Shown in pieces: positions 9,671 to 51,100 of a stretch of DNA of 64,000 nucleotides. The notes under the pieces were generated by a model that searched no databases, was not told the origin of the DNA, and was given only the letters and a program-made list of their open reading frames with translations. Source of the stretch: Chrysomallon squamiferum (lineage: Eukaryota > Animalia > Mollusca); the NCBI GenBank assembly GCA_012295275.1, contig CM022665.1, forward strand, positions 13,454,001-13,518,000, given 5' to 3'. Position 1 is the first letter of the stretch. Each line of letters opens with the position of its first letter. The position numbers and the translations under genes were made by a program.

Positions 9671-9801
9671 ATGAGCGACGAAAAGGGTAAAACAGCGTCC
9701 CCGAAAGGACGTCACAGAAAACTCGATCAGTCAAGCAGACGACAGAGTGTTGTTAAAGGTCTTGGAGAAGCCAGTTTAATTAGAAGAAGATCATCAGTTT
9801 C
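9671..9801 (+). CDS. Candidate variable first exon V1 (inferred to splice to ADGB exon 2): MSDEKGKTASPKGRHRKLDQSSRRQSVVKGLGEASLIRRRSSV(S)
   Basis: In-frame TAG just upstream of ATG; 43 open codons + 2 nt; donor TC|GTAAGT (phase 2); followed by intron-like microsatellites; RRQS and RRRSS motifs. Confidence 0.7.
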
Positions 9802-9835
9802 GTAAGTAATACTTTATTATTATTATTATTATTAT

Positions 9836-9870
<35 letters not shown>

Positions 9871-12143
9871 TTATCATCATCATCATTTAATTGTTGTTAT
9901 CATTACCAAAATTGTTACAGTCATCATTATCATCATCATAATCACATTCTTTTTCTATTAAAATATAAAAAAATGGATGATAATAAAACAAAAAAGAATT
10001 TAGTTAAAGAAATCTTTTAATCTGAAATAACTGAAAAATAATCTCTCAGTCTATGATTTCTAAATCTGAAACATTTTTGCGTAATCATATAATTATATAA
10101 CCTGCAAACTAAACCTATCTTTATAGCTTTTCTATGTTAATATAAAAGTAAAGAAGTAATCATAAAATGAATATCAGTTTCAATATTCAGGTATTATCAA
10201 TATGAGATCACCTCTGTCGTTTGTTCTCGGTTTCTCATTCTGGTAACCAAACCTTTTGATTGTATAATTTTATTTTATTTTTTTTTTATTATTTTTTTTT
10301 ATTTACTGCTAACCAGAGAAACTGATAAATAGCTTCTCTCTAACAAAAAATTCGAACTGATGACAGTTGTTTTGTTACATTCATGTATGCATGTACGTGT
10401 GTATGTACACGTGTTAACCCTCCATCTGTATGTGTTTTGTGAGTTACCTTCTTTTATTTTTATTTTTCTATTAGCTTGCTTGTTTAATAATGAACAGCAC
10501 GTTCAGACCAAAGCGACCGAGTAGCTGTGTATAAATTAAACCAAACTTTCTTTATCGCAGTTTGTCTCACTTTCACAGAAACAAAGACGCATACTTTGTT
10601 CGAGATAAAGCAGACTGTACAAGTGAATGACTCAAAGATTTGTACGAAAAATTCTAAGGTGTAAAAAATAGTGTTATTTATGTATAATTATATGATAAAT
10701 ATAAACCGATCCAGCTATTCCATGAATTATAAATTATAAACAAAGGATATTTAATACAGAAAGTACAAACCCTATGGCCTTTTGATAATGGGAACTTGTC
10801 CAACAGGTTCGCCAAGAAGAGTTACTGTAAGCTGAATAAATTACTCTGTGTTTCTCGTTTGCATTTTTAATGGATTCAGGGTATTTTCTCAAAGGCGTAT
10901 AGCTGTATTTTTTGTATTTTTTATTTATTTATTTATTTATTTATTTTTTTTTATATAATTATTATTATTATATTTTTTTAGCGCTTAGATCGCGAAAAAT
11001 GTTTTTTTAATTATATTTTCATTATTTTTTTATTATTATTTTTTATTTTATTATTATTTTGTTGTTGTTACTGTTTATTTTATTTTTTAAATTAAATAAT
11101 TTACTTATTATTATTATTATTACTATTATTATTATGATTATTTTAACATTATCTATTTACTATGTTACCAAATTGTATATTGTAATCCATTATATGATGT
11201 ATATGTTGTTTTCTGTGTTTTGTTTTGTGTGTGTGTGTATTACGTATATGTTTCTCTCTCTCTCTCTCTCTGCGAGTATATGTGTTTGTGTTTCTGTGTT
11301 TCTTTTTCATTGTGAGTCTCTGGGTGTGTACGTCTGTGTGTGTGTGTGTATGCATGTTTCAGTTGACGACTAAGTATAATGCTGTGCTCTAGGTACTTTT
11401 CTTACAGGAAAATCACAATGAAATTGACATACCTTTTACTTAAATCTGAAATAAAGAAAGTTCCTTTGAATATCTCTACCTGACGAAAACCGAGAACACG
11501 TGGTATTTCACTTAACTGCACATATCAGACGTTACAGTTTTAACCAGTGGTCACTGAATATATTCCTACTGGACAGGCGGGTGTTAATTTTGGCGACAAA
11601 AGCCAAATTGTGTTCTTGAAATACCAGTCGCTGTGTAAAATTATTTCCCACTGGAACATGATAATGAGGCTTACGTTGACTGACGAAAGTCTGAAAATAA
11701 CATCACCTTTATTCCTGTGGCTGTTCTGAAAGCTGTTTATGGTAAGCGCATCCGGGGTCAGGGGAAAGAAATGTTTTCATAAATTTTCTTTAAATGGCGG
11801 AAAAGTAAACGGCCAAGCAATTTTTCAGCGAAGTTGGAACTGGATTTATCGGACGGTTTCTGTGATAATGATGTGAGATGATTTTCTCTTGCAGCTAAGA
11901 AGGCTCCAATGCTGCATTAGTCAATGTCACTTATAACATCACAATTAAATGTATTTTTAACGTCAATATCGTTTGCCATTACGTATGAATCGGAATTATT
12001 TTCAGACTGTTCTGATTATAACAGTTGAATTCGCCATAATTCTGTAAAAGATAGATGTGCTTGTAAATATATGTGAGCGCACGTACCGGTTGATCTACTA
12101 TTTCTACATCAGTGTATGTTCTCTCCGAGCCATGATTTTGTTG

Positions 12144-12179
<36 letters not shown>

Positions 12180-12606
12180 GTACATATACAACACACACAC
12201 ACACACACGCACACACACATACACACACACATGTATGTACCAGTACGTAAATAAATAAATAAATAAATATGCATTTTACTTACTTAAGCTTGAAAACATG
12301 ACACCAAAGCCAATTAATTTCATATTAAACTTGGTTGAACTTTTTCTTTTTCAGTGTAAAATAAAAGTACATATTAATTTAAGCCCCAACCTGCTTTCAG
12401 AAAGTCCACTATCTTAATAGTTTGTATTCAGAAATGTCTAGTTCCATATGCCTTATGTTAAGCGGCGTTTGTAAAGAACAAATTACATTTTCGTGTTTAA
12501 CCGAGATACAGTAACAAATCAATGAAAAAATAAAAGCGAAATTGAAAGCCTTTGTTCATCTATTGTCTGTAAACGATGGATGAATTATTATATTTAAAAA
12601 CTTTTT

Positions 12607-12637
<31 letters not shown>

Positions 12638-12820
12638 TTTTACTTACTGTTCAAATGTTGAATTCGTGTTTTCATCGTTGCCTGTAGGTGAAATCATTTT
12701 ACATGGTTTTAGGAGTAATCGCAGTCTAGTTGATATTCTGTCAGTGACGTTAATAATAATTACTCTTACGTCACACTACATTTGATCACATTCTTACCAA
12801 CACTAAAGAAGTAGAAGACG

Positions 12821-12840
12821 ATGGTGGTCCCGAAGCGAAC
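12821..12840 (+). CDS. Weak candidate variable first exon (MVVPKR/T), phase 2
   Basis: ACGATGG start, AC|GTACGT donor, then poly-T intron-like sequence; CRE-like TTACGTCA at 12766-12773 and TGACGT ~20 bp further upstream. Confidence 0.4.
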
Positions 12841-13645
12841 GTACGTAAAATCTGTTTTCTTTTCCTTCTTTTTTTTTTTCTTAGGTTTTTTAAATTTTCA
12901 TTTAATTTTTTTTTTTTTAATTTATTTTTTTTTTTTTTTTTTTTTCACTCAGTTACGATTATTATTTTACAGCGAGTATTACTTTTGTTTATTGTTTTTA
13001 CTTTCACACGGTAAGTTAACATCATAAATGGGTTTTATAATATGGCTTTTAGGAACAAACGGACACACTAAACCTGAGATTCGAAAGATGTGGGAAACAG
13101 AAGCTAAACGCCGAATATTTTAATTGTCGTTTATGACTTATTTTTATACTGGTACACTATTCTGAAATTTCGCTCCCCTGTTTACACTTCTATTTCCATC
13201 ACTGTCAAAAATAATGTGTAAAATGTTATAATTTTTATTCAGAATTATAGAGGATTATTACTACGTTAAGACACTTGACTACTTAATTCGGTCTTAAAAA
13301 TACTGTATCATTTTTACATCTGCAATTGTTTTGTTTATAGAAGAACGAAACTCTTTAAATAATTAACAACTGTGTGTAAAATTGATGTATATATTTTGTT
13401 TAAATAAGATACTTTTGCTAGATTATATATCTAAAAACAAACTACATATAAAAAAAGTAACCTGATGTTGTTGCAAAACAACATGCCTCCCATAAAAATA
13501 AAGTGGTGAAAATTAATAACATTGCTATTAAAGTATTAAAAACAACAAAAACAGTATTTTAAAAGTTATTAATAAATTAATTGTCTTTTTATGAAAAATT
13601 AGACCAGATTTCTTAGATATTTTCTAAATTCTATATTTCATAAAC

Positions 13646-13681
<36 letters not shown>

Positions 13682-14204
13682 AAACAACAACAAAAAAAGT
13701 AATTAAAATCCCTCACAAATAAACAAACGTATGTGCATCTTCATCAAGCCATAACAAAAGACAGAGATTTTTAAAATTTATTTATTTATTTATTTATCAT
13801 TAGCTTCACCATCCAGATAAATCTGATTTCAAATACAACATTATTTACAAATACTGATGACACGAAAAAGCTCATCATGGGAATATTTTGAAATATGACT
13901 CGAGAACTATTGGATATTACTAGCAGAAAATTGCGAAAGTGACATTTAAACCAAATGATGAATACCGATAAAATAAAATAAATAGATAAACAATTTAATT
14001 TTACAGTTTAACAAAGATTGCATTATGTAATGACATCATTTCCTCACTGTTACAAATGGCGCGAACAACCATCTTATTATTTTTTGAAAAGCGAAACCGA
14101 TGGACAAAAATAATTATTATATTGTTATTCTGTTATGGAACAGTACTAGAAATAAAATAAAATATTTTTTTTTAATACTAATTCTAGTAGCTAATGCTTT
14201 CTCC

Positions 14205-14370
14205 ACGTAATCACAAATCTCTGTCAAGATACATCCGCTAGTGCTGCAAACATCAGAATATTTGCAAGGGCAACATTCACAGATATCATCATAAAAGTGA
14301 CTCATGTATTCGCGTACCCCTCTTATACAGAAAAACCTTTCAGCACATTAAAAGTGATCAAAAGGCGGGT
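14205..14370 (+). mobile_element. hAT-type transposase remnant (C-terminal dimerisation motif)
   Basis: Translation ...YPSYTEKPFSTLKVIKR resembles the hAT consensus (S/A)ERSFSxLKxIK. Confidence 0.4.
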
Positions 14371-15597
14371 GGCCGTGAGCATAGAACTCAGGGGAGGAAC
14401 TGCCTCCCAAATTCGGTCAAAACTTTTCCTAAACAGATCTAGCCACTCCCATTTAGTTTTATTTTATTTTATTTTATTTTATTTTTTGTGGGGGTTAGTT
14501 CAAAATGTAGCTTAATGGCCACGAGATACTGAATATAAAAAAAAAAAAAAAAAAAAAGATTAAAATTCCAGTGAAGAATTGATGATAGACATTTCTGTAA
14601 GTGACATTTTGTGAAAGTCAGCAGTAGCTTAAAAGTAAAAAAAAAAAAAAAATTACCAAACTGATTAATACCTGTATTTAAAGTAAGTGAGAAAATCCAA
14701 CGCAGTAATTTAGCACGCAGCTTAGGTAGGTTTCTATTACAGGACTACTTTTTGTCTTTGTAAAAAGCGGTGTGTGTGTGTGTGTGTGTCGGTATTATAT
14801 TCAGAGATATACTGGGATTGGATTATGGGTTTGGTGTTCAGTTTAGAACGATATATTTCCATGCTTAAAATATGTTCAAATTACGTTGAACAGATTTGAC
14901 CGAGGAGGTCAATATATACAGAATTAATGTCATCGGCCTTACTCGGTTCTGTTAATAGACAAAACGTGATTGCGATAGCTATACCCCTTGTTCTTGACAA
15001 ACTTATGGTAGTAAACATGAATTTTATCAATATTTAAAACATCTAACAATGTAACGATAAGAGATATATGGCGATATTTTCCAAGAAAATTACATTATTA
15101 TAAATATAATCATCTTGTGATTCGCCACTGCAGTGGAACAAACTTTTTCAGGGGAGACAACACTTCTTGTCTTCATCTGGAAATTGCGTGTACGTCAACT
15201 TACTTAAATAAGTTTTATATGAACAGTGTCCCTTGCACAGTTTATCATTCATGACAGACTGACATGAGGAATGGGAGGAATTTAAAGCGTACTTGAATCT
15301 TTCGACAGACTGGTAAAATATATTTTCATTAATTCTTTTTTAAAACACCCTCACAGATATTATTTTGGTGTATATAATCCAGTAATTCTGCGTTGAAATG
15401 GAAATTACTTATTGTTGATAAGACTGTCAATTTTGCATATAAAAAAAGGTTAAGTGTCGGTTGGTGGGGACGTTGTTTGAACTAGTCTGACAACTACACA
15501 ACAACGCTGTATTAATTTAAAATTATTTATACTTAGCTGAATTATTACTGATCAGTTTTATCATAATCTATACAGTTTGATAATTTCATTTATATAT

Positions 15598-15629
<32 letters not shown>

Positions 15630-18142
15630 AGTACTACTGCTGCTGCTGCTACTACCTTCTGAATCAAAAGATATTCTTTGTTATTTTATTTACAAGAATT
15701 AGATATGGTTTATAAAACATATATGTAGTTAAGCTAAGCCGAGCAGTAAAGCTTTACTCGATATAGCAGTAATTTTCTTCTGAATGTAATGCAGTTGACT
15801 GTTGTTCCCTTACATCTTCAAAAATGGATTTAATGCATTTGAAAAAAAGACTATACTTATGCATTTATATATATCAGTAGTTTTCATGGAAATTCGAGAC
15901 AGGTACTTTGACTACTTTTGTTGTCTATACAGATGGAACACGGGATGGAAATTATATGGCTTGTGCTGCGGTTAACCCTGTAGGCGGTGCAGGAAGGACG
16001 AAATTATTGTGTTGTGTCGTACCCGCATCGGTCATTAATATTTTATTCATTCATATATCTTAAATAGAGATCCTTCATCTCAGTGTGAGTACTATCTGTG
16101 TGCTTTGGCAGTTCGCTACAGTTTAGTGGAATGCAGTCACTTTGATCAGACAACGAATGATATGTTTGGTAGATATGATGTGTTGGAATTATTTAGCTTC
16201 CACTCGAACCCTTTGCTAACTTTCTTTTAAAAAGTTCCTTTTATAGTAAATTTTACTGTTTAATTTTATATCGGTCATTTTCATACCTCTGTCTGATACC
16301 CAATGGCCCATCCGTTTTCGTGCTGGGGTTAAACATTCATTTATTCACTGATTCATTTTTCAAAAATGTCCTCAAACAAACTGCAAGAAATAACGATTGC
16401 AAGAAGTATCGATATAACGCAGCAGGAATTTGTTCATGGTCTCGTTTAATCGTGTGACAACATCTGACTTGGATGCGTATATTATTATTTCAAAATGTAT
16501 GTGCACATCACACACACACACACACGCGCGCACGCACACGCAACGCGCACACACAGAGATAATTAATTGGGTTTATTATATACTTAAGAAGACAAAAAGT
16601 AAAAAGTATAGTTATCTAATCTCCTTTCAGTTAATGAAAAGAAAAAATTATAATATGATGTATAGTGTAATTTATACCTTCACTGTTTTGATAGAATTTT
16701 TGAACAGGATGTGTTCTAAAACTTAAATTAGATTGACGGTTTATGTCAGTTTTTACTGTAGGAAATGTGATTATTACTCAGTTCTTCTTTATAATTGTGA
16801 AGCCTTTTGCAATCCCATACTTAAATTGTTCGAGGAATTCAAAATATTAAAATTTAAAACCAAACAATTTTTTTTTTTTTTTTTTTTAATTTATGAAAAT
16901 AATTTAATCGTGTAGGACGGCAATACATTAAGGTACAAACAGTAATACATAAAAACGATTTACACAATGTACGCAGTAAGTGGTCGTGTTAGGACTGAAC
17001 TATAATGACGACGACAGAATACTGACGTTAATTTCCACAACGAAAAAGAGTGCAATTATTTTGCTATCATATATTTTGTCGCTCTGATTTGACTGATCCT
17101 CGTAAGCATTTCTTGAAAGTGGATCATGGAAATATCTTGTATCTGTAATGCAACCGTGTGTAACATAGATTGCCATCGGAGACAGTGATTGTGTTTTAAA
17201 CTTCTCTGCTAAATTTAAATACAGCAACAAAGAATAAAATAAAATAAGAAAACAATAGGCTGTGTTGTTAAACTGTCATTATTATTAATTATCATTTATA
17301 ATTTCATGTGCGTGTGTGTTTATATGCATTTATTTTATTTATTTATTTATTTATTTATTTATTTTATTTTATTTGTTTGTTTTTATTTTTCAAACTGTAA
17401 GCAGAACTGTTCTTTGCGGGAAATTATCTGTATCGCCTGAACAGAGTAAATCCACCCATGAATGGACTAAATCCGGATATCGCATTGGCCATCTTTATCG
17501 AATGGGGTCCTCGAACAGATATTGTTTAAAATACTTTAAACATAACTGTTTTATTGCCCACTCGAGCATAAAACAATTAAGCTTGAACAAGAAAGAAGAC
17601 AGTCCTGCGATCATATTTATTGTTTGTCGTATCATAGAAAAATAGGCTGCTCATCGTGTTTCGGCCGGAACATGATCTTCGTTTTATGGGGCCAATAGCA
17701 TATAATGTAGTGGCATACAATCCAACAGCGATACAATTTAACTTGTAATAGGTGCTTATTAAAGTAGCCACTGACGCATGCAGTAGATAATGTTATCGGA
17801 AACTAATACTAAACTAATATATACAAAAAGTTATGATTAAATATCTTGCAACTGTTATGAATGTCATTTTGTAAAGTTTGTTAAAATAGAAATCAATAAC
17901 AAGACAAGGAATCAGATTTCGAATTAAAAAAAGACTGGCTGATTTATTGTCTAGGCGTGTACTTATTACTAATAATCTAGGCCAAATTGAGTTTTTGTTT
18001 AAGTAAAAGGTTATAAACGTCTGCCTGGCTGTTCAAGTATCAGATGTCCATCCTGTCAGTTGTTACTATGGTGTTTATTTAACTGAACTTGTTACATGGT
18101 GAACTACTGTAGAACGAGATACATGGTGGTTACGGAGGAAAC

Positions 18143-18222
18143 ATGGGAGAATCGAGCTCAGCAAAATCATGGCAAAAACCATTAAAGTTGATCAAAACAG
18201 CAGCTTGTTTCAGTCCTACCAA
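18143..18222 (+). CDS. Candidate variable first exon V2: MGESSSAKSWQKPLKLIKTAACFSPT(K)
   Basis: AACATGG start with an upstream in-frame TAG; 26 codons + 2 nt; donor AA|GTAAGT (phase 2); X-box-like GTTACTATGG and GTTACATGGTGAAC 40-80 bp upstream. Confidence 0.6.
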
Positions 18223-18407
18223 GTAAGTTTGTTACTAACACTATTACTGCTATCTCAATAACCCAACATTAACTCCTAATAGGTTGTTTTTAAGAAATAT
18301 GTATTTTGAATGGCTGTATGTCTGTAAGTCTGAATGTATGTGTTTATGTACACATATATCTTTATTGTTGTAGTTCAGTTTTAACCATTTTATAATAAAA
18401 ACAAAAA

Positions 18408-18450
<43 letters not shown>

Positions 18451-21400
18451 GTTTGACTTCTTCAAATATGTACCCCAACCCCCCCCCCCATTTCAAGAAC
18501 ACGAGTGCAGTAAACTTAATTTCTAAATATAGTTTTATAGGTATATACTATATATAGGTATGCAACCAGTATATATTTTCATATATTTTTGTGTATGTAT
18601 GTGTCTTTTTACCCCTTCTTGTTCTTTTTTTTTTCATTCCTCTTTATTTTTGGCCTACCTGAAGTTTTAATTATTCCAGTCCTTGCCAACCGGCTCTGCA
18701 AACGTAAACATTTTACGTATGACGTGCAATATTTAATTTATTAAGTTCGCCTGCTTGTCCGGTTTCCCACTATTTAATTACTATTGTGCAACCAATAAGG
18801 CATGACCTTAAAATCACTCCGCTCATTAAAATAGTGCTATTACTATAGTAATTAAATAAACTAAAGAACATACGTCAGTGGTTTGCCTCGGCCTTTAATC
18901 GGCCACAGTTAACCGATACTCATCAATCAATCAGTCAGCCAATCAATTACCACCCTCCCTCTCTCTCTGCTATACATAACGCTGTATTACGCAAAACATT
19001 CAAGATAACGACTTGCATATTCCAGACAGGCGTGCTTTTCTCTTGTTTTATCTAACATACTGATAAGTTCCCAGTGTGGCTAATTTTGAATACGGTTATT
19101 ATTGAAACACGGAACAATATAATATTTGAATTTCAAGATCCGTATATCAGAGTCATGAAACTACTGATGTAAAATACTATTATTGGCTGCATTTTCAAAA
19201 TATCATATAATAAACTGCCATAAAATTACCTCACGGTCCACTTCGAGTTTCCAAAAAGTCTTACGATTGGAGAAAACAAAGTATATACTATAATTATATG
19301 TACTGAAAAAGCGAACTATAATGAAGTTGAAGTGGTTAAGGGCACGTCTTACCTACTAACAAGGATTGATTAACAAGGCGCAGTGAAGCATTTTTTTTTT
19401 TTTTTATGAGACTGTGAGGCATCAGTCGCGGCTTCAAACTTTTGAAAATTTGAAAGTTCAAAGCTATGAAAGAGATCACAGACTTATTCATTAATTCTGA
19501 ATCCTCATCACCACCAAAATATTGCCATGCCCCACCTATTATACCCTTTAGGCTAGGAAAGATATTTGGAATCAATTATGATATCATCTGAATAGCATTT
19601 CCTATTATTATTTTATTTTCGACAACAATAAATCTGGGGTTTAATTGCAAGTACTCGTGAATCTGTAATATAACGTAAGTTATTTATAATAACTATTATG
19701 CTGAATAACGGGGTATCAAACTGTTGAACAGAGTCCAGCTATATTTTAATTGTTACAACTCGATCGACAGTCACTAAATATTGAATGATGACAGAGCAAA
19801 GATAGAAGCTCGGTCTAACAACATTTTTAGTTTTAAAATGTTCGATATAATTGTTGTGAAAAATACAATATGTGCGAGAAGATTACTTTATTAATACTTG
19901 TATGGAACAAATATCTGACCGATGACTGAAGTGCTAAAAAATTGTACCACTGTACGACGATTTAAAACAGTCACTTATATTCTGAGTAATACAGTAGAAT
20001 ATAGGTCAACGTAATCGTTAAAAATCATTACAACTTCACGACTACTGGTATCTAAGAAATCTATTTGATTTTTATCGAGCTTATTTGGATCAAAAACACA
20101 GTTGTATAAATAGCAGCAGATTCAGCTTTCGGGGTGGGGGTAACTTTCTGGCGAAATGTTTTTATAATCATCACAGAGACCAATAAAAAAAAAATATATA
20201 TATTGCCCATCGACAAGACCGGATCCAAAAATCTAAGTTTAAAGACACAGAGGTACAAAGGACTGATATCTAGAGGATCGGGATCAATACTTAAAAATAA
20301 AGGGACGAATCTTTCTCTTTACAACGCTGTCTCCACCTCTTCTGTATTATTTTTGTTTTAGTCTTCTTTTTTTTTCTACAATTTTAGCCCTTTATATAAG
20401 ATCATACATATCCCGCTGTGACAGGTATGATGCAAGCTGTTTATTCTTTCCACAAGATAGGTTTATATGTCTCTGTGTCTTTGTAATCAACATACTTGAA
20501 CTATTATTTTAGCTCCGTTATCTCTCTATGATCGCCATTGCCTTGTCGGCTTTATTTTGTTGACTTGTGTGTTAAACTACGGACATAGACTGGATCCAGA
20601 ACTACTTGTTGGAATAATGGATTATTTTTAATGACACCGACACAAAACCGCATACAACTACCATTCTGAATTATTCACAATTTTAGAGATTTTGCCAAGC
20701 TAAAAACAGTTTTCACAGTAACAACAATAGTAACAATTAATTTTTGTGTTCAGTTTTCTTTTCTTATTAATTTTTTTCTTAATTTTTATTATTATTATTA
20801 ATTTTTTATTAATTTTTTATTTTATTTTAAATTTGTACAAAATGATCCAAAAAGTTAATATAAAATGTCACATTTTTTATTCTTAAGAAAAAAAAATGCT
20901 TTGACAATTTCGTCATTTATACTTGTTTAGACATGTTCTTCATTTTCTTTTTCTTTCGCCCTCAGAAGTTCTTCGTATGCAATTAAGGAGCAATAAGCCA
21001 TGCGCGAGAAAATAATACGGTAGTAAAGATTTCATATGGGTTGTGTTCACATTTTATATTTAAGATACTGAAATCATAGAGGGTCCAGTGTAGAGGTTTC
21101 TTTCATACGTATAATAATCTTCACACACGAAACACACGTTAAGAACGCATGTCTTTTAAACACGTTCAAACAGATTATCCGCTCTGTTAGCATCAGGCTA
21201 ATGGGAGTGTGTTAGTCAATGTAAATTATAGTTTTAAACACGGACAAATATATTATGTCAGTTTGTGTGTGAATGTGGTGTGTATGTTGGTCTGTTTGTG
21301 TGTATGGGTTAGTGTCTGTTATATTCACAGAGATAGCATGTGTTCATAAATGTGAATGAGTGAGTGTATATAGATAAACGTTCATTCGTGACATTTAATG

Positions 21401-21462
21401 TTTGTTCTGTTGTGACCTAGCCGTATCAATATTTGTATTTTCACACACACACAGACAGACAG

Positions 21463-21544
<82 letters not shown>

Positions 21545-23507: not shown

Positions 23508-23536
23508 GTGAGTACATATCAGATATAATTAGTATT

Positions 23537-24787: not shown

Positions 24788-24859
<72 letters not shown>

Positions 24860-24861
24860 TA

Positions 24862-24893
<32 letters not shown>

Positions 24894-36599: not shown

Positions 36600-36660
<61 letters not shown>

Positions 36661-39900: not shown

Positions 39901-40913
39901 GGGAAACAATAAAATTCTAAAGATGTTTGAGTTACATAAATTCCAACAGGGTCTGACAAACAATGCTTTTAAGAGTGTTTGTTAAGCGAGATACAGCCAG
40001 TATGATCGTTTCCATGAAAGTGAGCGGAGGAAATCAATTTTCGTTTCTGAGATCAGAGTAGAATTTTGATTAACTCGTCTGTTTAGTACATCAGTTTAAT
40101 GATTTTGTAATGAAGAAGACACATATCCTCTAGACAATAAATAAGACTGAAATAAATCAAAGTCGTATGAAAACCTATTTCGTTTTTGCAAGAAAATTAC
40201 TTTAACCGGTAACTGATTTCTTTTTCTTTTTAAAATGTTTTTCCTGCGGGTTTTTTCCGTCTCCGTGCTGTGTTGCTGTCATGGGCTCCAAAACAAATTT
40301 GCCATTAAAAAGAACATACATCTGAGTCACTAAAAAAATAAAATAAAATAAAATAATTTAGAATAAACATCTTTGTTTAGAATTTTTCTCATATAACATG
40401 ATAATGATACATCTCATATTTACGTGAAGTTAATATGTAGGAATATAAGTGCATAATCAATTAAAATTAATGCTGATAGGTATTTATATGTTGTATTATA
40501 TCTAATGCATGCAGGCATATGTGTGTGTGTGTGTGTGCATATATAGGAAGGTGGGCAACACATGTATGTATAAAATTTATGAATAGATTTTGTATTATTA
40601 TTATTTTAATATTTTGGGCTTCGAACTTTATTAAAACTTGTGACACGATGTCATTCAGAATTCTTAAAATATATATTTATGGCACTGAGACTATTGAATT
40701 TTCTTTATTTTTTCTTTAAGAAAACCCACTGCAAAATAAATTTATTGTGTGTATTTAAAATATATTTATATAACATATTTTCAAACTATATAAATAATTA
40801 TTCAGTATATATATATTTAAGTTCGATGTAATCCGAATTCATTTGTGTACAAATTAAATTAATCATATTGGCTATTCCTTAGCTGCAGATTAAAATAGCA
40901 TCGAAAGTGTATT

Positions 40914-40947
<34 letters not shown>

Positions 40948-40968
40948 AATAATTACACAAAAATGTAC

Positions 40969-40999
<31 letters not shown>

Positions 41000-41637
41000 T
41001 GTGAAATCAAATTAATTAAACAAAGGACTTTCATTCCAGTTTTTTGTTATTATTTATTTTCTGTTTCTGAATGCGCTTAGACCATATATTGCAATTCTTC
41101 AATGTACAATTACAAAAGGCCTATCTGTATTTACGTGTTACTTTAAACATTATTGTGTTTCGTTTTAATGGAATCTATAGTACTCTGTGGGATACGTGAA
41201 CATGCAGTATCGTGTTGTTCTACGTACTGTTTATTTTATGTCTCAAACGGCTAAATCAACTTTCGCGAATTCCTTACAACGTTCTTAAATCGGAGTCATA
41301 AGAATAGCCACTGGACCAAGACAATGTGGGGTGCTTCGCTTTAATACGATATCACTTCATTTCGTTGTTGGAGGTGTCTCGAAAAACCTCCAGTAAGATT
41401 AACTGACTGTTGAAAGATAACAAATTATTTATTTATTTTACATTTGAATTATATATTGTGCGTGGAACAGTATGTTCGTTTTCGCTTAAAAGGAAAGAAA
41501 TGTTATCATTCCAGTTACAGGTGAAGTAATGGAATAAAACATTGGAAAATAGATACTAATAAAGATGCAAACCTATGCTGATTAGTGAATCAAAATTTTC
41601 AGACAAAAAAAAAGGTGGGGGTAAAAAAGTAGTGATT

Positions 41638-41984
41638 ATGAGTAGGAGGACATCCTTGTTACCAACTGGCGGGAAAAGACTGGCTGCCAAACGACAGTCT
41701 ATAAAAGATGGGCAACAGGCACTGCACAGAGGATCATTTTGTCTGTTCGATATTCAAGAAAAATATTTATACATTACGATTCGCACTTATCCTTCCCACC
41801 CGGACACAGAGACAGAAATTATTATCGCTCAGGGACCGATATATCATGTAGACAGCAGACGTGGCTCTTTGCTACCATCTGACAGAAGACAGTCTCTATT
41901 TCCGGTTGATAGGCGACCGTCTGTTTTCCCAGCTGACCACAGAGATGAGGTGATTACACCCGACAGTGACCGCAGAGATCATAG
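41638..41984 (+). CDS. Candidate variable first exon V8: MSRRTSLLPTGGKRLAAKRQS...DSRRGSLLPSDRRQSLFPVDRRPSVFPADHRDEVITPDSDRRDH(R); possible earlier ATG at 41575
   Basis: 115 codons + 2 nt open in AT-rich DNA; donor AG|GTAAAA (phase 2); five (R/K)RxS motifs. Confidence 0.75.
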
Positions 41985-42082
41985 GTAAAAGACGGGCAGA
42001 AATTAATATTTATGATAAAAATATATAATGAACAGTATATATGTATGTATTTATTAATGTGCATTATATAAAGGTAACTTCA

Positions 42083-42152
<70 letters not shown>

Positions 42153-42543
42153 AACATTGTGAATAAGAAGCCACCAACTTGCAGACATGCCAAGGCTTGT
42201 CAGAGTAACTTTATTTTATTACTATTAGTTTTTTAACATTATTAATTTAATTTCCATTGCGTTTTTCGGATTGAGCACTAGCAAAAAGCTTTAACCACAC
42301 ACGAGGTATCAGTTTTCTTTTACAAACAACAATTAATTATAACAAAATCAAACACTGCTTACATTCATATAACATGCAGTGTTGTAATTTGTATAAAAGG
42401 TATTACATGTAACAAATAAGAATGTAAAAAATTATATATCTATATTGGCAACAAACAAAAAAAAATAAAAAAATAAAAAAATAAATAAAAAAATAAAAAC
42501 ATAAAATAAAAATTTTAAATATAATTAATTAATTAATTAGCTA

Positions 42544-42598
<55 letters not shown>

Positions 42599-43677
42599 AT
42601 AGTAGTGTTAGTATTAGTACTGGTATTAGCATTAGTATTAATATTAGTCATTTTATCATTTATTTTTTTTTATTTTTTTTTTTTTTAATGACGCGGTGAG
42701 CTTGTAACACAAACATGTCAATAATAATAAATAAATAAAATAAAATAAAATAAAATAAAAATTAATAAAATGCATAAATAAATGAAAAATCTTATTAACA
42801 ACAGTTTTTGCCAGTGATTTACAAACGTTTGCAGGTTTACATTATCACGGGTTTACACGAACACACACACATTTTTTTTTTTATATCAGTATTTCATGGT
42901 TTACTTACATTTGTGTATGCGAAGTAAAGCTGGCAATCAGTGTGCATCCTCAGTAACCCTGAAATACTTAATTATTAACAAGACTTTTGTGTAAAAAAAC
43001 AACAACAATTTCTTTTTTTTTAAATTAATAGTAATAATAATTTCTTTAAAGTATAATTATTTCATTTGTTTCTTTTAATCAACAATAACAATAAAGTATG
43101 TTCCTTCAGCCTAAATTCAAAGACAATAAATGAATAAATAAAATTCGTTTTTACAGTCATTCCATCAGGCTAGTTTTTTTCTAACTCTCAAAGATACATT
43201 TCAGTGAGTGTTTTCTTCTAGTCCGTTTATTTTATCTTCAGCTTTACAAAATGTCACAATTGTCGAAGCTGATTAACTTTGATTTAACACATAATTTAGT
43301 TTTATGAGAAGCATTATAAAAATGAACAGGTTATTAAAACCAGAAACATGCTCAAACACAGATCTGAATTTCGATAATTTATGTATCAGTCTAACAAATC
43401 TCCATTTATCTCTATATCTGGGTTATGCAGTCATAAATTGTATTAAACTGTTTTCAATACCTTGTTATTTATTTATTTTCTAACCGTTATTATTCGACCG
43501 TTGATATATTATTGCAGGTAAAACGTAAAAATCAGTGGGGAATAAATAGAGGCAATATTTGATTTATGAATATTTATGTGATATATAAATGAATTATTAC
43601 AATAGTTAATCGACCGAAGTAAAACATTGGGCTATCCTGTCATTACTACCCTCGCCCTTTTCTCGCAAGTACCACAT

Positions 43678-43775
<98 letters not shown>

Positions 43776-44184
43776 ATCATACGGTTTTCTTAAAATCGAT
43801 ATTTTTACATTTTATTATTATCGCAATAAACTGTCTAGCTGTGAGATTAGAGCAGTAACTAATGAAGCTATAGAGAAAGTAAACAAAAATTATCCCTCTC
43901 GAAAAATAACAAAACAAAATAATAATAATAATAATAATAATATTAATAATAATAAAATAATAATAATAAATTTAAAAAAAAAAGAAGAAAAAAAAAAGAA
44001 AGAAAATAAATAAATAAATAGACAAAGTTCTTTTGATACTACTAAAATGTTTAATTACATTTATTTTTACATGTAAACATAATTTATCAATTTTTCATCG
44101 CATTAATGTGCAATAAATAAAATATTTACTCTTGCCGACACTTTCTTAATTCCAGTTTTTGACATATCCAGTAATCGAGAAAGC

Positions 44185-44223
44185 TGCGCATGCACAGCGG
44201 CATTAGTGATTGGACATGGCAAC
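44185..44223 (+). promoter_or_regulatory. Proximal promoter of canonical ADGB exon 1
   Basis: NRF1-like TGCGCATGCAC (44185-44195), inverted CCAAT box ATTGG (44209-44213) and RFX half site CATGGCAAC (44215-44223), 70-110 bp before the ATG. Fits the known RFX/FOXJ1 control of androglobin in ciliated cells. Confidence 0.6.
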
Positions 44224-44294
44224 AAGAGCGACGAACGATACTTGATAAGTTTTCTCAATTGTTGTCAATGAAATTTCAGTAATTGTTTAATGTC

Positions 44295-47200
44295 ATGGCT
44301 TCAAAGGGCACTAAAAAGGGTTCAACTTTCAATCGTGTGAATTCTGCAACACCAAGAGAGTAAGAACCTTTGAATAAGTGCTCATTTTTAAAGTTATTTT
44401 TGTTCCTTGGATACAATATGGCTGCTACCATATAGCCTGTCAACTCCAGAAACCTCTTAGCGCACTTGTTAAGGTCCATGAAAGCTTGTTATAATAGTCC
44501 TAGTTTAACGACTTTTTAAAAGTCCATTTAATCTTTGACATATTTATATAGCTCTTTGTTAAAATACTGTTCACTGAGTCGAGATTTATTTCATATGATA
44601 ACATTTATATATTTTAACAATTATTATTTTTTATGTTTATCAGTTCATTTATGATATTCAGGTGAATAATATAATTCTGAATTTTATAGTAAAATATAAT
44701 TGAATTACATTTTGTAATTAAATGTGATCTCTACATTTTTTTTTTTATCATGGTACTGTCTCTGATTATTACTATAAAAAAAGTATTATTAATCGGTAAC
44801 TATGCTAAATCATTAAACTGATTTTAATATCAAATCTGATAAACAGATATAAACAAATACTTCATATATTAATGTATTTATTATAATTTTATAACTACAT
44901 TATATCAATTTTTCTTAAATGTCTATTAATTATTCAAATAATGTTTTGTACACAGAACGTTAATTCTTTATCATCCATACAGCATAGTTATTCCTTGATG
45001 CCATAAAATAATTTTATTAATTTGTTTACCACTTTCATATTATTTATTTATTTCATATTTCATTATATATATATACACACACACATCACCCCCCGTTAAA
45101 CATATTTTTCTTTATATATATCAAATTTCAGAAAATAATTTTTTTAATTTTCATGTTTTGCAGGAAATTTTGCTGATATATCTTATTGAAAGTATCAGTA
45201 TATAAAATGTGGTATTTGGCATAAATTGATTAGTTACATTTGAATACATCTGGTATTTGTATTTTTCAAGAAACTGACATTGTATTGGTGTTCATTAGAT
45301 AAGTGTACGAGTGAATGAATATGTTTGTGTACACTTATTTTTTGTGTGTTTAGATACGTGTCTTTCATATGTGATTTCACTGCAATGCTTACTACTTCTA
45401 ACAAAATAGTGATTTAAAAAGCAGAAAGAAAAAAGATTATTTCAAATAATGAAATTTTTGTATGTATGTTTAAATTGTGGCTATATTTGTTTATATACAT
45501 GTGTGTTAGTGAATGTGGATCCATATTTATCATAAATTTAATATATATACACAGGTGTTTTGCATAAAATAAATGTGCTTGTGTGTGTGTTACTGAATGT
45601 GGATTTACTTTTTTTTTATGTTATCATATATATAAAAAGAAACATAACAGAAAAAATATATATATACAAATATGTTTGTATACTAAATATAACTATTATT
45701 ATTACAATTCTCAGAATATTCATTTATTACATTATGTGGACAGATAACAAATACATATATTTATTGTACATTATCTCTCTCTCTATAACTTGACATTAAT
45801 ATTAGTTTCATTATCATCTGCATCAAATTCATCATTACCATCTGGATATTTGTAAATGTTTTATTTACTGTTTCAGAAAAAAAAAGATATATATATATAT
45901 ATGTATGATCTATATTTAAACATAACATTATCATTTAGTGTGGATCAATTAGGACATGACATCCTACTCCAGATTTTTTGTCTATTTGTTTGTTGTTGTT
46001 TATTTGTTTTTTTATAATATCCACTACTCTGAGTGTGTGCCTATCTTTTCTGAAAATGGGATCATTCATTGTATAATTTCTGTATCACTATTTAAAAACA
46101 CTGTATTTTCACACGAGTTCAATTTCTAAATAGGAATGTTTCCTTTCTTTTATCTCATTAAGTTTTCAAATTAGATTTGAATGAAGACTGATGCAGTTAG
46201 TTAGTTTCAACCAATCAGTGTAAATTGCTTTTAATGGCTTCAGTTAGGATTGGTCTTGAAAACTATTTTGAAAATCTGTTTTTTTTTTTTTGGAAAAAAG
46301 TAATACTATTTAAAAAAAATATAATTATATATAGACTTAAGAGTATTTTGTTTATAATTAACACTGAAATATAAATATTTTATTATTATGATTATTATTA
46401 TCATCATTGTTATTATTTATATATTTTGTAATTAAAAAAAGTATATCATTTATTCATTATAACAGGTTTTTTACAATTAATATTTAAAAAATAAAATGTT
46501 TCTTCTATTTTCCATTTCTACATATAGAAAGTTCTTGAAAATATTAATCTTCAGAAAAAATAGAATCATAATAATTATTTATTTTTATTTACTTAATCAA
46601 GAATAGCCATATTAAATGTCTGTCTAAAACTACTAAACTCATTTACTGTGATCTGTCATATTGTTAGATTATTACATGTGTCATCATCATTAGCAGTAAT
46701 AATACAACTAGTAACATTGACGTTATCATCAAATTCAAAAATCTTTATACATCTGTCATTAATAGGCTGAATTTAAACAGCTAATTACTGGGATCAAGTA
46801 AGACAAATACTGTGATACCATTACTAATAGACTTTATTTTTATTTTATTTGACTATCAGATAATAGTATTATTTAATCAGTTTGTTCTCTCTATATCAAA
46901 GATCATCTTAAGAATAATGAAAATAAAATGGTATGATAGACAAAAACATGTAATTTGGATAGCCAAGATAATTTTTCATCATTTCTATCATTTGTTTATC
47001 TTTTCTTTTTTTGAAATTATTTTGTTTGTTTTGGTTTATTTTTTCTCTTGTTTGGGGGTGGTAATTGTCAGTTGTTTATATATACATTTAAAACATTTAT
47101 GCATCTCATTTAGAAAAAGTATTTTAATTAATTTTTATTTAAAAAATAAAAATGTGAATTAAAACACATCTGAAATAGATTTTTCCTTCTTTGTGCATTG

Positions 47201-48094
47201 TATGAAATGCAAGGAAGTTATGAAGAATGGTTTGAAAAATTAAAGTTAAATTTCTGAAACTCTATCTTTGACAGTATTTGAAATTAATTCTGTCAGCTGA
47301 ATGTCATCAAGATTCTGTGAAGTCTACATGGGCAGTTGTGTCACAGGCAGTCACTACAAATGTCATTATGTTACTTGACTGATTTATGTTTACAGTATTT
47401 TCTTGACAAATGATGCTTGAAACATAATACTTCTTATCTGCAGCTAGATGCAAATAGATCTTGGTGAGAAGTTGTTTAAGAATATTGTTTCAACTTCAAC
47501 CAGGTGATATATTCATAAGTTTACAGAAATGGAATGAATAATATTTCTATGTCCATAGTATTGATTTTAATACTTTTTATTTCTGTTTTGTTGTTTGTTT
47601 TGTAAATTGTTTAATAGGAAGTAGAATATTTTTATACAGTAACCTTTTGAATGAAAGAAAATCAAAATTCCTAAACTTTAGGATGTAAATACTAATATTA
47701 TAATAACTTTGTTGCATCAGAATTAAAAACACTGTGTTTTTCTAAACTCATTATTTAAATGGCTGCAAACAATACAACAACAAAATGATGCTAAACACTG
47801 GGGATTTTTAAATCAATATTTGTGACTGACAACACAGATCAAACAGCGCTTGGTTATTGATTCCACATGACAAAGAGAAAAACCTCCCTCCCTTCGTTCA
47901 TTACCACTCAACAAGTTTTACCTGCACAGGTTAATGGACTGTTCAAGCCACAGGTTTAAGGACAATGGGGTTTTCAACGAAAGTGGGATTTAATCATCTT
48001 TTCCCCTGACCTCAGGTAAAGCAGTGTTTTGTGGCTATGGTCACGTTAGCATGGGTTTGGTTACCTGTTTAATCAATGTAACTATTTTACATGG

Positions 48095-48135
<41 letters not shown>

Positions 48136-51100
48136 TTGATGTAACTTGCAGTAATAATGGAGTTGTTTGAGGTATGTTTTATTATTATTTAAAGAAAGAT
48201 GCTTTTTTTTTTTGTAAGTATAGAACAAATGTTTTCTCTTTGTTCTTATTTTACTTTTTGTATTTTATCTTTGTAGTTTTATCTTCAATTGTATATAACC
48301 CTTGCTTAAGAAATAATGATGGTTTTAACAGAATTCTTTGTACATCAGAAATATTAAAATATTGGATATGATCATTTTTAAAGATGGGAGGATTTTTCTA
48401 TTGATAAATATTCATTTATTTATTATTTTATTTGTCATCTTTTGTTTTATATGTATGTGTGATTTTGCATTTTCATTTATTTTTGATTTTCTTACATTTT
48501 AAAGTATTAAATTCTTTATTCTTTAGTGAAGAAATTTTGATAATACTTGTTTTCAGAAGTTAAGACAAATTCTTGTTAATGTATCTCAAAAAAAAAAAAA
48601 ATTCATTAATTATAATTTAAAGGTTCTGGGTTATAAAATAACAAAATAATGTTCTTGATATTCTTTTTCAGGTAATTTTACTAATTAAATGTTTTCTTAA
48701 ATGTTCTAAACATTTGAAAATATATTAAATACATTTTGCAAATAACAAATGTGTTTGGAATAAACTAAGAATAAAGTAACGTACTATTATTTACTAGAAA
48801 TAAAATTATAAATTAAAATGAGGATGCCTTTAAATATGATTAGAAAACTAAATTGTTACAGTATGAAATATCTGAAATAAATTTATAGCTGTATAAAATA
48901 AATACAATTTAAACAAAATCATGGCAGTATAAAATATCTGAAATACATTTACAGCAATATAAAATAACTGAAATTTACTGAAATTTACAAAAGTTAGAAT
49001 TATCTGACATTTTTTTTTTTATAGCAATGTAAAATATACAATTTACACAAAAGTAGAACAGTATAAAATATCTGAAATAAATTTATTACAGTATAAATTT
49101 AATCTACAATTTACACAAAATTATAGCAATATAAAATATCTGAAATAGATTTAAAGCAGTATAAAATAAATCTTCAGTTTACGCAATTATTACAGTATGG
49201 CTACCGATACATACAACATAGCAAATTATAGCACTGTTTTCTACTCAAGATTTCTTTGTTCACTTGCTATTGAATCAATAAAGTTTCAGTACTTTTATTA
49301 TTTATTGGAGCAGAAACCTTTAATTTGAAGTACATTAAAAATTAAATTTAGTTGCAATTCTTGTTACAATTTTCTTGCTACCTAGTTATAATGATGTGTG
49401 TGTAGATAATTATTGGTATGTATGAATGTTTTTTTTAAAATGCCAATTGTAAATAACCTCTTTCTTTGTCTTAGTTCTATATGTTCAAGTTAGGATATTT
49501 CTGCATGCAAAATATTCATAAATTAAATTTTATTTTATTTTTAATTTTATTATTTTTTTCTATCTTATTTGAATATTTTTGTTTTAGTTTGTTATTTTAT
49601 AGTATTATTTTATTTTATTTTATTTTATTTCATTTTTTATTTAATTATGCTTTATTTCATTTTGTTTTCTATTCATTTCATTTCTTTTTCATTTGTATTT
49701 CTGAATAATGTATCTAGAAATTACATTAAAATAAAACATGTAACTTTATAAAGTGATTGTGATTTTATAATTAATTTACTGACACCTCGTAATCAGTGTT
49801 AATTATTAACTGATTAATTAATTATACTTTAATTTATTTCATTTTATTTCAGGGCTGCATCTGTTGCTGCTAGTGCAGGAGGTCAGGACTCAAAACGTCC
49901 CAAAATTATAATCTGGCCTGAGTGGAATGATGCTGATATTAATGCTGAGAAATGGGTAAGAATTTTTAGAATATTAATAATAAAGATGATCATGATGATT
50001 CTTTCTCAAAAACAATTACAAATAAAATGAAATACTTTAAAAACAAACAAACAAACAAGTAAATAAATAAGTAAATAAATATAAAAATAAATAAATAAGT
50101 AAGTGTAAATAAATAAATATATAAATAAATAAATAAAGTATAATAAAGTAAAACAAAACTTTGGAGTACAGTTGAGTAGTAATGATATTAATATATTATT
50201 AATTAATAAAGTGCCAGTGATAAAAATGAAGCTGTTGATGGTAGTCCTGCAGCTTTAATTAAACTCCAGAAAATTATTAGGTTCAAATTGTTGATGTTTA
50301 CCAATTAAACTATTTCTATTATTAATTAATATTACTTTTATTTTTGTTTTTGTTGTTATAATTATTCTTATTGTTGTTGTTGTTTTATTATTGCATTTTA
50401 ATTTATTTTGTTTTTCATGTTCTTCCAGGAAACAGCCAGAAAAGATGACAGGAAAGGAAAATCTCCAGTTGTGGTTAGAAATTTTAAAATATATTTACAC
50501 ATTTACAAAATATGACAGTGCCAAGCCATTATTCTAATAATACTCCCTTATATAAGACAAATTTTATATTTATTTCTTTTATTTTTATAATCAAAATGAG
50601 AGATATTGTAGAAGTTTGAAATATATAATCTGTTTATTAAACAGAAACATTTTCCTTGAATGCAAAACTTTTTTTTTCATCTTAACATATATTTTATTCT
50701 ATAATTAATATTAATGTTTCATTTTTCTTTTTGTTATTCTTTCCAGTTTTATTCAGTATATTCATTTACTTTCATTTTAAAATATGTAATTTTATTTTGT
50801 TATTTGAATTCTATGTAAAATAAAACAGAAGAAGCATTATATTTTTTTTATTTTCTGAATATATGTATTAAATAAGAGAAAAGCAATTTCCCTTACTATT
50901 TATTCATTTTGCAATTTAGGTTCAGCATTATTTTGATGATCCAGATGGAAAAATTGAAATGCCCCCATCGCTAAAAGTAGACCACTGGAAACGTCCTCAA
51001 GAGTACATGCCTGATAGGGTATAAATAGAAACTCTTTTAAATAATAACTAAAATTATAAATGTTTTGCTTGAGAAACAAATGAGTGAATGTTTAATGATA

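What the first reader, a model, noticed from the sequence alone, without database searches (positions are those of the whole stretch)
9671..49955. Array of variable first exons upstream of androglobin (protocadherin/UGT1-like variable + constant architecture)
Seen: across ~35 kb with no other gene body there are at least 8 isolated ATG-initiated open segments on the + strand (9671, 18143, 23416, 26876, 30473, 33102, 35833, 41638). Each ends at a GT donor two nucleotides into a codon, as does the canonical ADGB exon 1 (44295-44359). ADGB exon 2 (49853, G GCT GCA...) needs exactly phase 2, and every junction gives a sense codon (S,K,S,R,R,R,M,R). Seven have unambiguous donors; seven independent phase matches by chance would be about (1/3)^7, though I partly searched with phase in mind. 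The peptides are not homologous to each other, so this looks like independent exon/promoter recruitment rather than tandem duplication. Established: variable-first-exon arrays are known for clustered protocadherins, UGT1A and plectin; I know of none for androglobin. Inference: promoter choice generates 9 or more androglobin isoforms with different N-terminal tails, perhaps specific to ciliated cell type or spermatogenic stage.
Basis: partly seen in the sequence, partly recalled or inferred. Interest (0 to 1): 0.93.

Follow-up and report, generated by a model that had tools for sequence, protein, structure and literature searches.

The report
Androglobin's ancient swappable first exons
In this gastropod the cilia gene androglobin is preceded by a row of seven or more likely alternative start exons (one seen spliced on in RNA, seven matched by androglobin starts of other molluscs) that code unrelated tails rich in predicted kinase sites, which would let different ciliated cells and sperm tune the same protein.

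Summary
Real and, as far as I could find, undescribed. All nine segments are open, ATG-initiated and end in phase 2, as androglobin (ADGB) exon 2 needs. RNA contigs join segment 30473-30672 to exon 2. 22 of 33 invertebrate species sampled (molluscs, ribbon worm, echinoderms, amphioxus, tunicate) have two to eight such N-termini; 0 of 14 vertebrates do. The tails are unrelated to each other but carry 9 RRx[ST] motifs against 1.5 expected, and these are the invariant residues across species. Best reading: promoter choice fits one central-pair (C1b) protein with different phosphorylatable tails for different cilia. Cell-type specificity and phosphorylation are untested. It is plectin-like, not protocadherin-like. 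Public gene models already hold the isoforms; no paper I found describes them. The scan noted a similar array at another gene in an annelid (e1-7275784, unchecked), none at ADGB.

The parts
9671..9801 (+). V1 coding part of alternative first exon (43 aa + S), donor GTAAGT; RRQS and RRRSS motifs
   Evidence: Haliotis rufescens isoform X14: z 17.9, tblastn E 6e-11; Patella vulgata z 5.5; both motifs invariant in 8 aligned tails picked by the end motif
18143..18222 (+). V2 alternative first exon (26 aa + K), donor GTAAGT; basic/hydrophobic stretch, no RRxS
   Evidence: Crassostrea virginica X21 and Magallana angulata X25: 11 of 23 identical, 0 of 2000 shuffles reach the score
23416..23507 (+). 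V3 alternative first exon (30 aa + S), donor GTGAGT
   Evidence: H. rufescens X16 z 9.6; H. rubra z 11.4
26876..27006 (+). V4 probable alternative first exon (43 aa + R), donor GTAATT; RKYS, RKGS motifs
   Evidence: no homologue among 109 annotated tails or 136 further N-termini; its AG end fits the contig branch point, but so does V8
27939..27970 (+).
   Evidence: no homologue; untested in RNA
29087..29099 (.). palindromic RFX X-box-like site between V4b and V5
   Evidence: 1 of 100 shuffles reach 2 matches; pattern written after seeing the site; consensus recalled
30473..30672 (+). V5 alternative first exon (66 aa + R), donor CAG/GTAAGT; transcribed 5' part reaches at least 30342
   Evidence: X1 contig 30380-30673 with 27 loose letters equal to 49854-49880; X2 contig 30342-30673 with 27 letters left over; H. 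cracherodii z 6-7, low complexity
33102..33235 (+). V6 doubtful: weak donor GTACAT, no kinase motif, no homologue
   Evidence: contigs 33151-33432 (X2) and 33227-33508 (X3) cross the donor unspliced
35833..36014 (+). V7 alternative first exon, donor GTAAGT; conserved part begins at the second in-frame ATG (35941); X-box-like site at 35885-35898
   Evidence: Gigantopelta aegis X2 z 16.9, tblastn E 5.5e-8 over 35947-36015; 7 of 100 shuffles hold such a site
41638..41984 (+). V8 alternative first exon (115 aa + R), donor GTAAAA; four RRxS motifs and a predicted beta-hairpin (residues 43-66) in a disordered tail
   Evidence: Pecten z 21.4; oyster, mussel, zebra mussel z 11-15; pLDDT 78-84 at residues 41-60, 43-53 in the blocks outside 41-70
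44295..44359 (+). canonical exon 1 (21 aa + E), donor GTAAGA
   Evidence: 91% to G. aegis X1; same family in 23 other tails including annelid, ribbon worm, starfish, amphioxus, tunicate
49853..49955 (+). constant exon 2, common phase-2 acceptor (TTTCAG/G)
50429..63274 (+). further constant ADGB exons (about 15 matches, residues 55-809 of the closest relative); gene runs off the window
   Evidence: identity of the gene
6500..44400 (.). CpG-undepleted domain that covers the whole array (o/e 0.87-0.91) against 0.17-0.24 in the flanking gene bodies

Best explanation
The window holds the 5' half of a gastropod androglobin gene whose exon 2 is joined in RNA to an upstream segment 19 kb away and likely to six or more other alternative first exons, each likely under its own promoter, giving one ciliary protein unrelated basic tails whose conserved RRxS motifs are predicted kinase sites that would tune it differently in different ciliated cells and sperm. 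Steps: (1) shown: phase-2 geometry of all segments; V5-to-exon-2 junction. (2) Strongly inferred: V1, V2, V3, V7, V8 and canonical exon 1 are used the same way, because relatives' isoforms carry the same tails at the same junction. (3) Inferred: each has its own promoter, since none has a strong acceptor within 150 nt upstream, all have an in-frame stop upstream, and the region is CpG-undepleted with X-box-like sites. (4) From the literature: ADGB sits in the distal C1b projection of the central apparatus with SPEF2, calmodulin and MYCBP. (5) Predicted, untested: cAMP/PKA-type phosphorylation of the tails (V1, V5, V7, V8, V4) or a helix-type contact (V2) changes charge or partner binding at C1b and so the beat. 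My odds: array real 0.95; own promoters 0.85; cell-type-restricted use 0.65; tails act through basophilic-kinase phosphorylation 0.55.
For:: X1 contig covers 30380-30673 and continues with 27 letters identical to exon 2; X2 contig has the same end and 27 letters left over; stopping 28 letters into exon 2 is what a 31-mer graph gives if another donor ending in AG (V4, V8 or an unknown one) also joins; of 1099 ATG..GT candidates on both strands scored blind against 109 relatives' tails, the top loci are V8 (115), V1 (105), exon 1 (94), V7 (79), V5 (76), V3 (64), V2 (49); best minus-strand score 42; 22 of 33 invertebrate species have 2-8 N-termini switching at the start of exon 2; 20 of 33 unnamed gene calls with sequence before the AAS start look like intron read-through (F/Y-rich, then R or S), so that position is an exon boundary in many animals; only 5 of 109 junction residues cannot be an NNG codon (17% expected). 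RRx[ST] 9 vs 1.5 (0 of 5000 shuffles) in window tails, 83 vs 14.8 (0 of 1000) in 99 relatives' tails, 0-2 per 1800 aa in four constant regions; these motifs are the invariant columns of V1, V7 and V8. CpG step at exon 1, no acceptors. Papers: PMC8175508, bioRxiv 10.1101/2025.11.10.687652 (C1b), PMC7949040 (RFX2/FOXJ1), PMC8913902 and PMC9865615 (serotonin/cAMP control of mollusc cilia and sperm).
Against: Only one junction of eight is seen in this species, in assembled contigs of one study (2 of 4 runs cover V5); six segments and exon 1 were never laid. Intron sequence is also covered widely in X1 and X2 (21 of 30 bins), so DNA or unspliced RNA is present and 5' ends cannot be read. V6 is crossed unspliced; V4 and V4b have no homologue. 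Relatives' isoforms are automatic models, not cloned cDNAs; 2 of 109 tails look like intron read-through. V5's match is low-complexity and fell below the z 6 cut. V2, V3, V6 and exon 1 have no RRx[ST], so phosphorylation cannot be the role of every tail. RRxS also fits other basophilic kinases (recalled). No non-canonical tail aligns convincingly between molluscs and deuterostomes (z at most 3.1 for V8-type tails; two short motif-driven links at z 3-6). X-box half sites are not enriched (17 vs 12.7). Loss of Adgb caused only minor changes in Tetrahymena (abstract of PMC8175508).
Confidence: 0.72

Rival explanations
1. The array is real but its purpose is transcriptional: many promoters give expression in many ciliated tissues, and the tails are tolerated filler that only has to be in frame.
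For: Tails are mostly low-complexity and predicted disordered; most of 109 tails have no partner outside close kin (36 of 51 clusters are singletons); sampled vertebrates manage with one first exon.
Against: V2, V8 and the V1 end motif are kept between gastropods and bivalves; RRx[ST] is sixfold enriched over composition and is the invariant part; V8 keeps a hairpin with invariant Y, T, P. Non-coding first exons would do the transcriptional job.
Confidence: 0.1
2. The tails matter, but as docking or targeting elements rather than PKA switches: basic stretches that bind tubulin tails or membranes, a calmodulin-type helix (V2), a hairpin that adds to a partner's sheet (V8), or leaders removed by calcium-dependent proteolysis.
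For: Net charge +46 over nine tails; V2 is conserved without any RRxS; human ADGB has a minor calcium-dependent N-terminal cleavage (PMC13696810, passage); alternative N-termini of Aplysia calpain CCal1 change autolysis (PMC5650170, passages).
Against: Charge alone does not explain the fixed R-R-x-S spacing (shuffles keep charge). V2's hydrophobic moment (0.68) is not higher than that of other tails, so the helix reading has no support from my test.
Confidence: 0.15
3. The segments are chance frames in a long intergenic or 5' region, or exons of another gene or spliced to each other.
For: Phase excess disappears with loose donors; V4, V4b and V6 have no outside support.
Against: Direct V5-exon 2 junction; six segments match ADGB N-termini of other species end to end; no acceptors before the ATGs.
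Confidence: 0.03

Closest known systems
Plectin (PLEC1), NOS1 and glucocorticoid receptor: genes with multiple variable first exons (listed in PMC1885805)
   Same: One gene, a row of alternative first exons, each spliced to common downstream exons; in plectin short unrelated coding exons give different N-termini (plectin detail recalled; search listing PMC4664173 only).
   Different: Here an invertebrate ciliary central-pair protein; several exons individually conserved between gastropods and bivalves; tails converge on RRxS motifs; not seen in the vertebrates sampled.
Clustered protocadherin alpha/gamma, UGT1A, GCNT2 (PMC1885805)
   Same: Tandem variable first exons plus constant exons; all variable exons share one splice phase.
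   Different: Their variable exons are paralogues made by duplication and code large folded domains; here they are unrelated (z at most 1.7) and 10-115 aa of mostly disordered tail on a protein of about 1800 aa. No sign of stochastic promoter choice was tested.
Androglobin of mammals and Tetrahymena; FAP42 of Chlamydomonas
   Same: Same gene: calpain-like N-terminal domain and androglobin domains in the closest relative; canonical exon 1 conserved; RFX/FOXJ1-type regulation plausible.
   Different: Mammalian papers treat one promoter and one start site (PMC7949040, PMC11119863, passages); 14 vertebrate species sampled show one first exon each.
RefSeq/GenBank androglobin-like isoform models of molluscs, Lineus, echinoderms, Branchiostoma, Clavelina
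   Same: They already encode alternative N-termini at this junction, six of them orthologous to window segments.
   Different: Automatic models without description; a 2026 phylogeny set same-species ADGB sequences aside as possibly 'isoforms or annotation artifacts' (PMC13331133, passage).

Membership tests
Androglobin (ADGB) gene | Orthology to ADGB, with N-terminal calpain-like domain | tested here: met
   39 of 44 candidates pass; top hit G. aegis androglobin-like, 83%; 17 collinear exon matches
Androglobin (ADGB) gene | Circularly permuted globin with IQ motif | not testable with these tools
   lies beyond the window end (matches stop at residue 809); IQ hit at 1177-1193 seen only in the relative P0040; no whole genome held
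Gene with multiple variable coding first exons (plectin type) | Several upstream exons, each with its own start codon, in a phase that fits one common acceptor | tested here: met
Gene with multiple variable coding first exons (plectin type) | Each variable exon is spliced directly to the constant exon | tested here: inconclusive
Gene with multiple variable coding first exons (plectin type) | Each variable exon has its own promoter and start site | not testable with these tools
   contigs cannot show starts; indirect: no acceptors, upstream stops, CpG domain, two X-box-like sites
Gene with multiple variable coding first exons (plectin type) | Tissue- or cell-type-specific use | not testable with these tools
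   four small runs of one study, tissues not given
Clustered protocadherin / UGT1A type cluster | Variable exons are paralogous, born by tandem duplication | tested here: not met
   pairwise z at most 1.7 among nine tails
Clustered protocadherin / UGT1A type cluster | Variable exon codes a large folded specificity domain | tested here: not met
   10-115 aa; no Pfam family for the six tails scanned; the longest is predicted disordered except one hairpin
Clustered protocadherin / UGT1A type cluster | Stochastic, CTCF/enhancer-driven promoter choice (protocadherins) | not tested
   needs single-cell and chromatin data
PKA substrate | R-R-x-S/T consensus (recalled) above chance and conserved | tested here: met
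PKA substrate | Phosphorylated by PKA | not testable with these tools
   needs biochemistry

The most novel reading that the evidence does not exclude
Marine invertebrates run a 'ciliary tail code': the single-copy central-pair protein androglobin carries an ancestral bilaterian array of promoter-linked first exons, so each kind of cilium (sperm, gill lateral and frontal, larval bands, epidermis) builds its C1b projection with a different number of cAMP-kinase sites or a calcium-type helix, and vertebrates collapsed the array to one exon. If other ciliary genes do the same, promoter-selected phospho-tails would be a general way to give one axoneme many responses to serotonin and dopamine.
Probability: 0.3. 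Interest if true: 0.85.

Novelty: new member of a known kind. Interest (0 to 1): 0.64.

Why it matters
Androglobin is described as a single-copy gene that did not diversify like other globins (PMC13331133, abstract). This locus shows hidden diversification at the N-terminus by promoter choice, widespread in marine invertebrates and not seen in the vertebrates sampled. Molluscs run several kinds of cilia that answer differently to serotonin, dopamine and acetylcholine (PMC9865615, PMC8913902, passages); exon-specific probes, phosphosite antibodies and single-exon knockouts at this locus make 'how does one axoneme get cell-type-specific control' directly testable, and give androglobin's unknown function a regulatory handle.

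Tried and rejected
No whole genome is held, so the rest of the gene and its neighbours were not read. Only 30201-33800 was laid against RNA; the other donors and the acceptor itself were not, which leaves V1-V4b, V7, V8 and exon 1 without direct RNA evidence. X3 and X4 show no cover of V5: no evidence either way. A generic donor matrix (approximate, from memory) scored true donors of this locus poorly (exon 1 only 0.9), so I switched to intron-side patterns. Two extra strict-donor phase-2 frames (7239-7300, 11739-11872) did not reach the top 45 and are not counted. The score of 54 for read-through of 33102 comes from a His/Thr microsatellite and was rejected. Search for short proteins with exon 2 found nothing (2 candidates, 0 pass). 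The 50% library (150 of 183 listed) gave mostly intron read-through gene calls and no homologue of V4, V4b or V6 (best V6 score z 5.2 against a canonical-type tail, best of 136, rejected). ESM Atlas gave no usable hit for V8; Pfam none for six tails. A profile of five bivalve tails that look like V5 did not find V5. Cross-phylum orthology of non-canonical tails was not supported. A calmodulin-binding or AKAP-type helix in V2 was considered from recalled motifs; the hydrophobic-moment test did not single it out. X-box half sites are not enriched. No complex prediction was run.
Full report
SETTING. The window is 29% GC animal DNA. It holds the 3' part of a MYCBP gene at 769-2523 (third seen exon matches human c-Myc-binding protein, PDB 2yy0, E 5e-9) and the 5' half of androglobin, whose exons from 44295 to 63274 match residues 1-809 of the Gigantopelta aegis protein in 17 collinear pieces. 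The best hit of one exon is G. aegis (83%), then limpet and abalone, so the source is a gastropod. No whole genome is held.

OBSERVATION. All eight segments (V1-V8) and canonical exon 1 start with ATG, are open, and end at GT two bases into a codon; exon 2 at 49853 needs that phase. With looser donors the excess disappears (GT[AG]A: 14/13/17 and 7/10/16). So geometry is suggestive, not decisive. The nine peptides do not resemble one another (highest z 1.7). None has a strong acceptor within 150 nt upstream and all have an upstream in-frame stop (6-288 nt), as first exons should.

RNA. Four small RNA runs of one study hold the ADGB exons. Only 30201-33800 was laid. In X1 a 321-nt contig covers 30380-30673 and goes on with 27 letters identical to 49854-49880: V5 spliced to exon 2 across 19.2 kb, skipping V6, V7, V8 and exon 1. 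X3 and X4 do not cover V5. Both contigs stop 28 letters into exon 2; if these are 31-mer graph contigs (recalled), that is the expected end when a second donor ending in AG but not CAG also joins, which fits V4 or V8 and not exon 1 (30) or the unspliced intron (27); this is inference. V6 is crossed unspliced by contigs of X2 and X3, with no junction among the rows shown (23 pieces hidden). Intron cover is wide (21 of 30 bins in X1 and X2), so starts and levels cannot be read.

RELATIVES. Three cluster look-ups and two searches gave 420 ADGB proteins; 280 had a recognisable invertebrate-type exon-2 start and yield 109 distinct tails (one search used 99 tails from 254 of 337). V1 matches H. rufescens X14 (z 17.9) and Patella vulgata (5.5); V3 H. 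rufescens X16 and H. rubra (9.6, 11.4); V5 H. cracherodii (6.9; 6.1 on repeat, low complexity; below the cut); V7's 3' part G. aegis X2 (16.9); V8 scallop, oyster, mussel, zebra mussel (11-21); exon 1 many species; V2 two oysters, 11 of 23 identical, 0 of 2000 shuffles. The abalone, limpet and G. aegis matches run to the junction residue. As a blind control, 1099 ATG..GT candidates of both strands were scored against the 109 tails: the top loci are V8, V1, exon 1, V7, V5, V3 and V2, with one microsatellite artefact between; the best minus-strand score is 42. V4, V6 and the new candidate 27939-27970 have no match there or among 136 further N-termini.

BREADTH. 22 of 33 invertebrate species sampled have two or more N-termini that switch at the start of exon 2: for example C. 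virginica 7, O. edulis 6, M. angulata 6, H. rufescens 5, Branchiostoma belcheri 8 (7 if one is a truncation), Lineus 3, Asterias rubens 2, Clavelina 2; 11 show one, three of them with a single protein. Littorina adds a shared extra exon behind four starts. None of 14 vertebrate species shows more than one first exon (52 proteins scored; 9 lacking the exon-2 motif were dropped). Listings are capped at 15 members per cluster, I chose the clusters, and all are automatic models, so invertebrate counts are minima and the vertebrate absence is weak evidence. That the switch point is an exon boundary in other animals is backed by 20 of 33 unnamed gene calls that run from F/Y-rich intron-like sequence through R or S into AAS and by junction residues fitting an NNG codon in 104 of 109 tails (83% expected); 2 of 109 annotated tails may themselves be read-through. 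Apart from exon 1, no tail aligns convincingly between molluscs and deuterostomes: the layout is shared, deep orthology of single exons is not shown.

WHAT THE TAILS CARRY. RRx[ST], the PKA consensus (recalled), occurs 9 times in the nine window tails against 1.5 in shuffles (0 of 5000), 83 times in 99 relatives' tails against 14.8 (0 of 1000; 40 of 99 tails have one), and 0-2 times in four constant regions of about 1800 aa. In alignments the invariant columns are these motifs: RRxS and RRRSS in V1 (rows chosen by the end motif, so only the first motif is a free result), RxS and R-GS in V8, KQRGS in V7. V8 is predicted disordered except a beta-hairpin at residues 43-66 (11 sequences, C-terminal rows misaligned). 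V2, V3, V6 and exon 1 lack RRx[ST].

PROMOTER SIGNS. CpG observed/expected is 0.87-0.91 from 6500 to 44400 and drops to 0.24 and 0.17 just after exon 1 and 0.17 in MYCBP. In invertebrates CpG loss marks germ-line gene-body methylation (recalled), so methylation likely starts at exon 1 and the 38-kb array stays unmethylated, as expected if exon 1 is the broadly used start and the others are restricted. Two full X-box-like sites lie at 29087 and 35885 (patterns written after seeing them); half sites are not enriched. RFX2 and FOXJ1 drive mammalian ADGB (PMC7949040).

MECHANISM. ADGB belongs to the C1b/C1f region of the central apparatus in Tetrahymena, where Cfap174/MYCBP co-precipitates with it (PMC8175508), and is modelled in distal C1b of mouse sperm with SPEF2 and calmodulin (bioRxiv 10.1101/2025.11.10.687652). 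Serotonin and cAMP speed molluscan cilia and sperm (PMC9865615, PMC8913902). I infer that promoter choice equips C1b with tails of different kinase-site content in different ciliated cells. Phosphorylation, the kinase, and cell-type use are untested; rivals are neutral tails and docking or cleavage roles.

COMPARISON AND NOVELTY. The layout is that of genes with multiple variable first exons (PMC1885805). It fails two defining features of protocadherin/UGT1 clusters (paralogy, folded variable domain) and works like plectin. Searches: 'androglobin' 143 papers, 40 listed; with 'isoform' or 'first exon' 25 listed, 4 holding androglobin, none on this by title; with 'alternative promoter' 0; 'Adgb, invertebrate, N-terminal isoforms' 0; alternative first exons with cilia and PKA terms 0. 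Seen of each paper: PMC13331133 abstract, outline and one passage; PMC7949040, PMC8175508, PMC13696810, PMC5650170, PMC1885805, PMC11119863, PMC10650076, PMC9865615, PMC8913902 and the bioRxiv preprint: keyword passages only. No supplements were read, and most subscription papers, perhaps including the first description of androglobin, are not searched; either could mention these isoforms. The isoforms are already in public gene models, so what is new is the recognition of a conserved array and its motif content.

VERDICT. Observation confirmed; interpretation supported with 7 backed starts, 1 probable, 1 doubtful, 1 new candidate. New member of a known kind. Interest 0.64.

Noticed in passing
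window 769-2523, + strand: The upstream neighbour is MYCBP (AMY-1, FAP174 orthologue), a reported C1b partner of androglobin; two partners lie head to tail about 7 kb apart. Synteny in other species not checked.
   Followed up: partly
window 6500-44400: Sharp CpG step: o/e about 0.9 over the array, 0.1-0.25 in both gene bodies, with the fall just after canonical exon 1.
   Followed up: partly
   Followed up: partly
window 9031-9036, 13010, 16975, 19674, 29680: Further GTAAGT donors without a fitting ATG frame; could close non-coding leader exons (9036 follows an X-box half site at 9011).
   Followed up: no
window 30417-30672: An upstream out-of-frame ATG (30417) lies inside the transcribed 5' part of V5 and stays open to the same donor; could damp translation. 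X1 differs from the window at 30436-30437.
   Followed up: no
   Followed up: partly
window 28404-28854, 48850-49171, 52899-53090: Degenerate tandem repeats of period 49, 68 and 22/44 nt in introns.
   Followed up: no
window 32808-32842: A 35-nt element hit by many unrelated RNA contigs in all four runs; likely a dispersed repeat fragment.
   Followed up: no
P0235, P0236, P0238, P0239 (Littorina saxatilis): Four different starts share an extra 19-aa exon before exon 2, a two-tier version of the array.
   Followed up: no
P0016, P0152, P0156, P0163-P0165, P0357: Echinoderms and a hemichordate share their own conserved long tail family, not alignable to the mollusc V8 family.
   Followed up: partly
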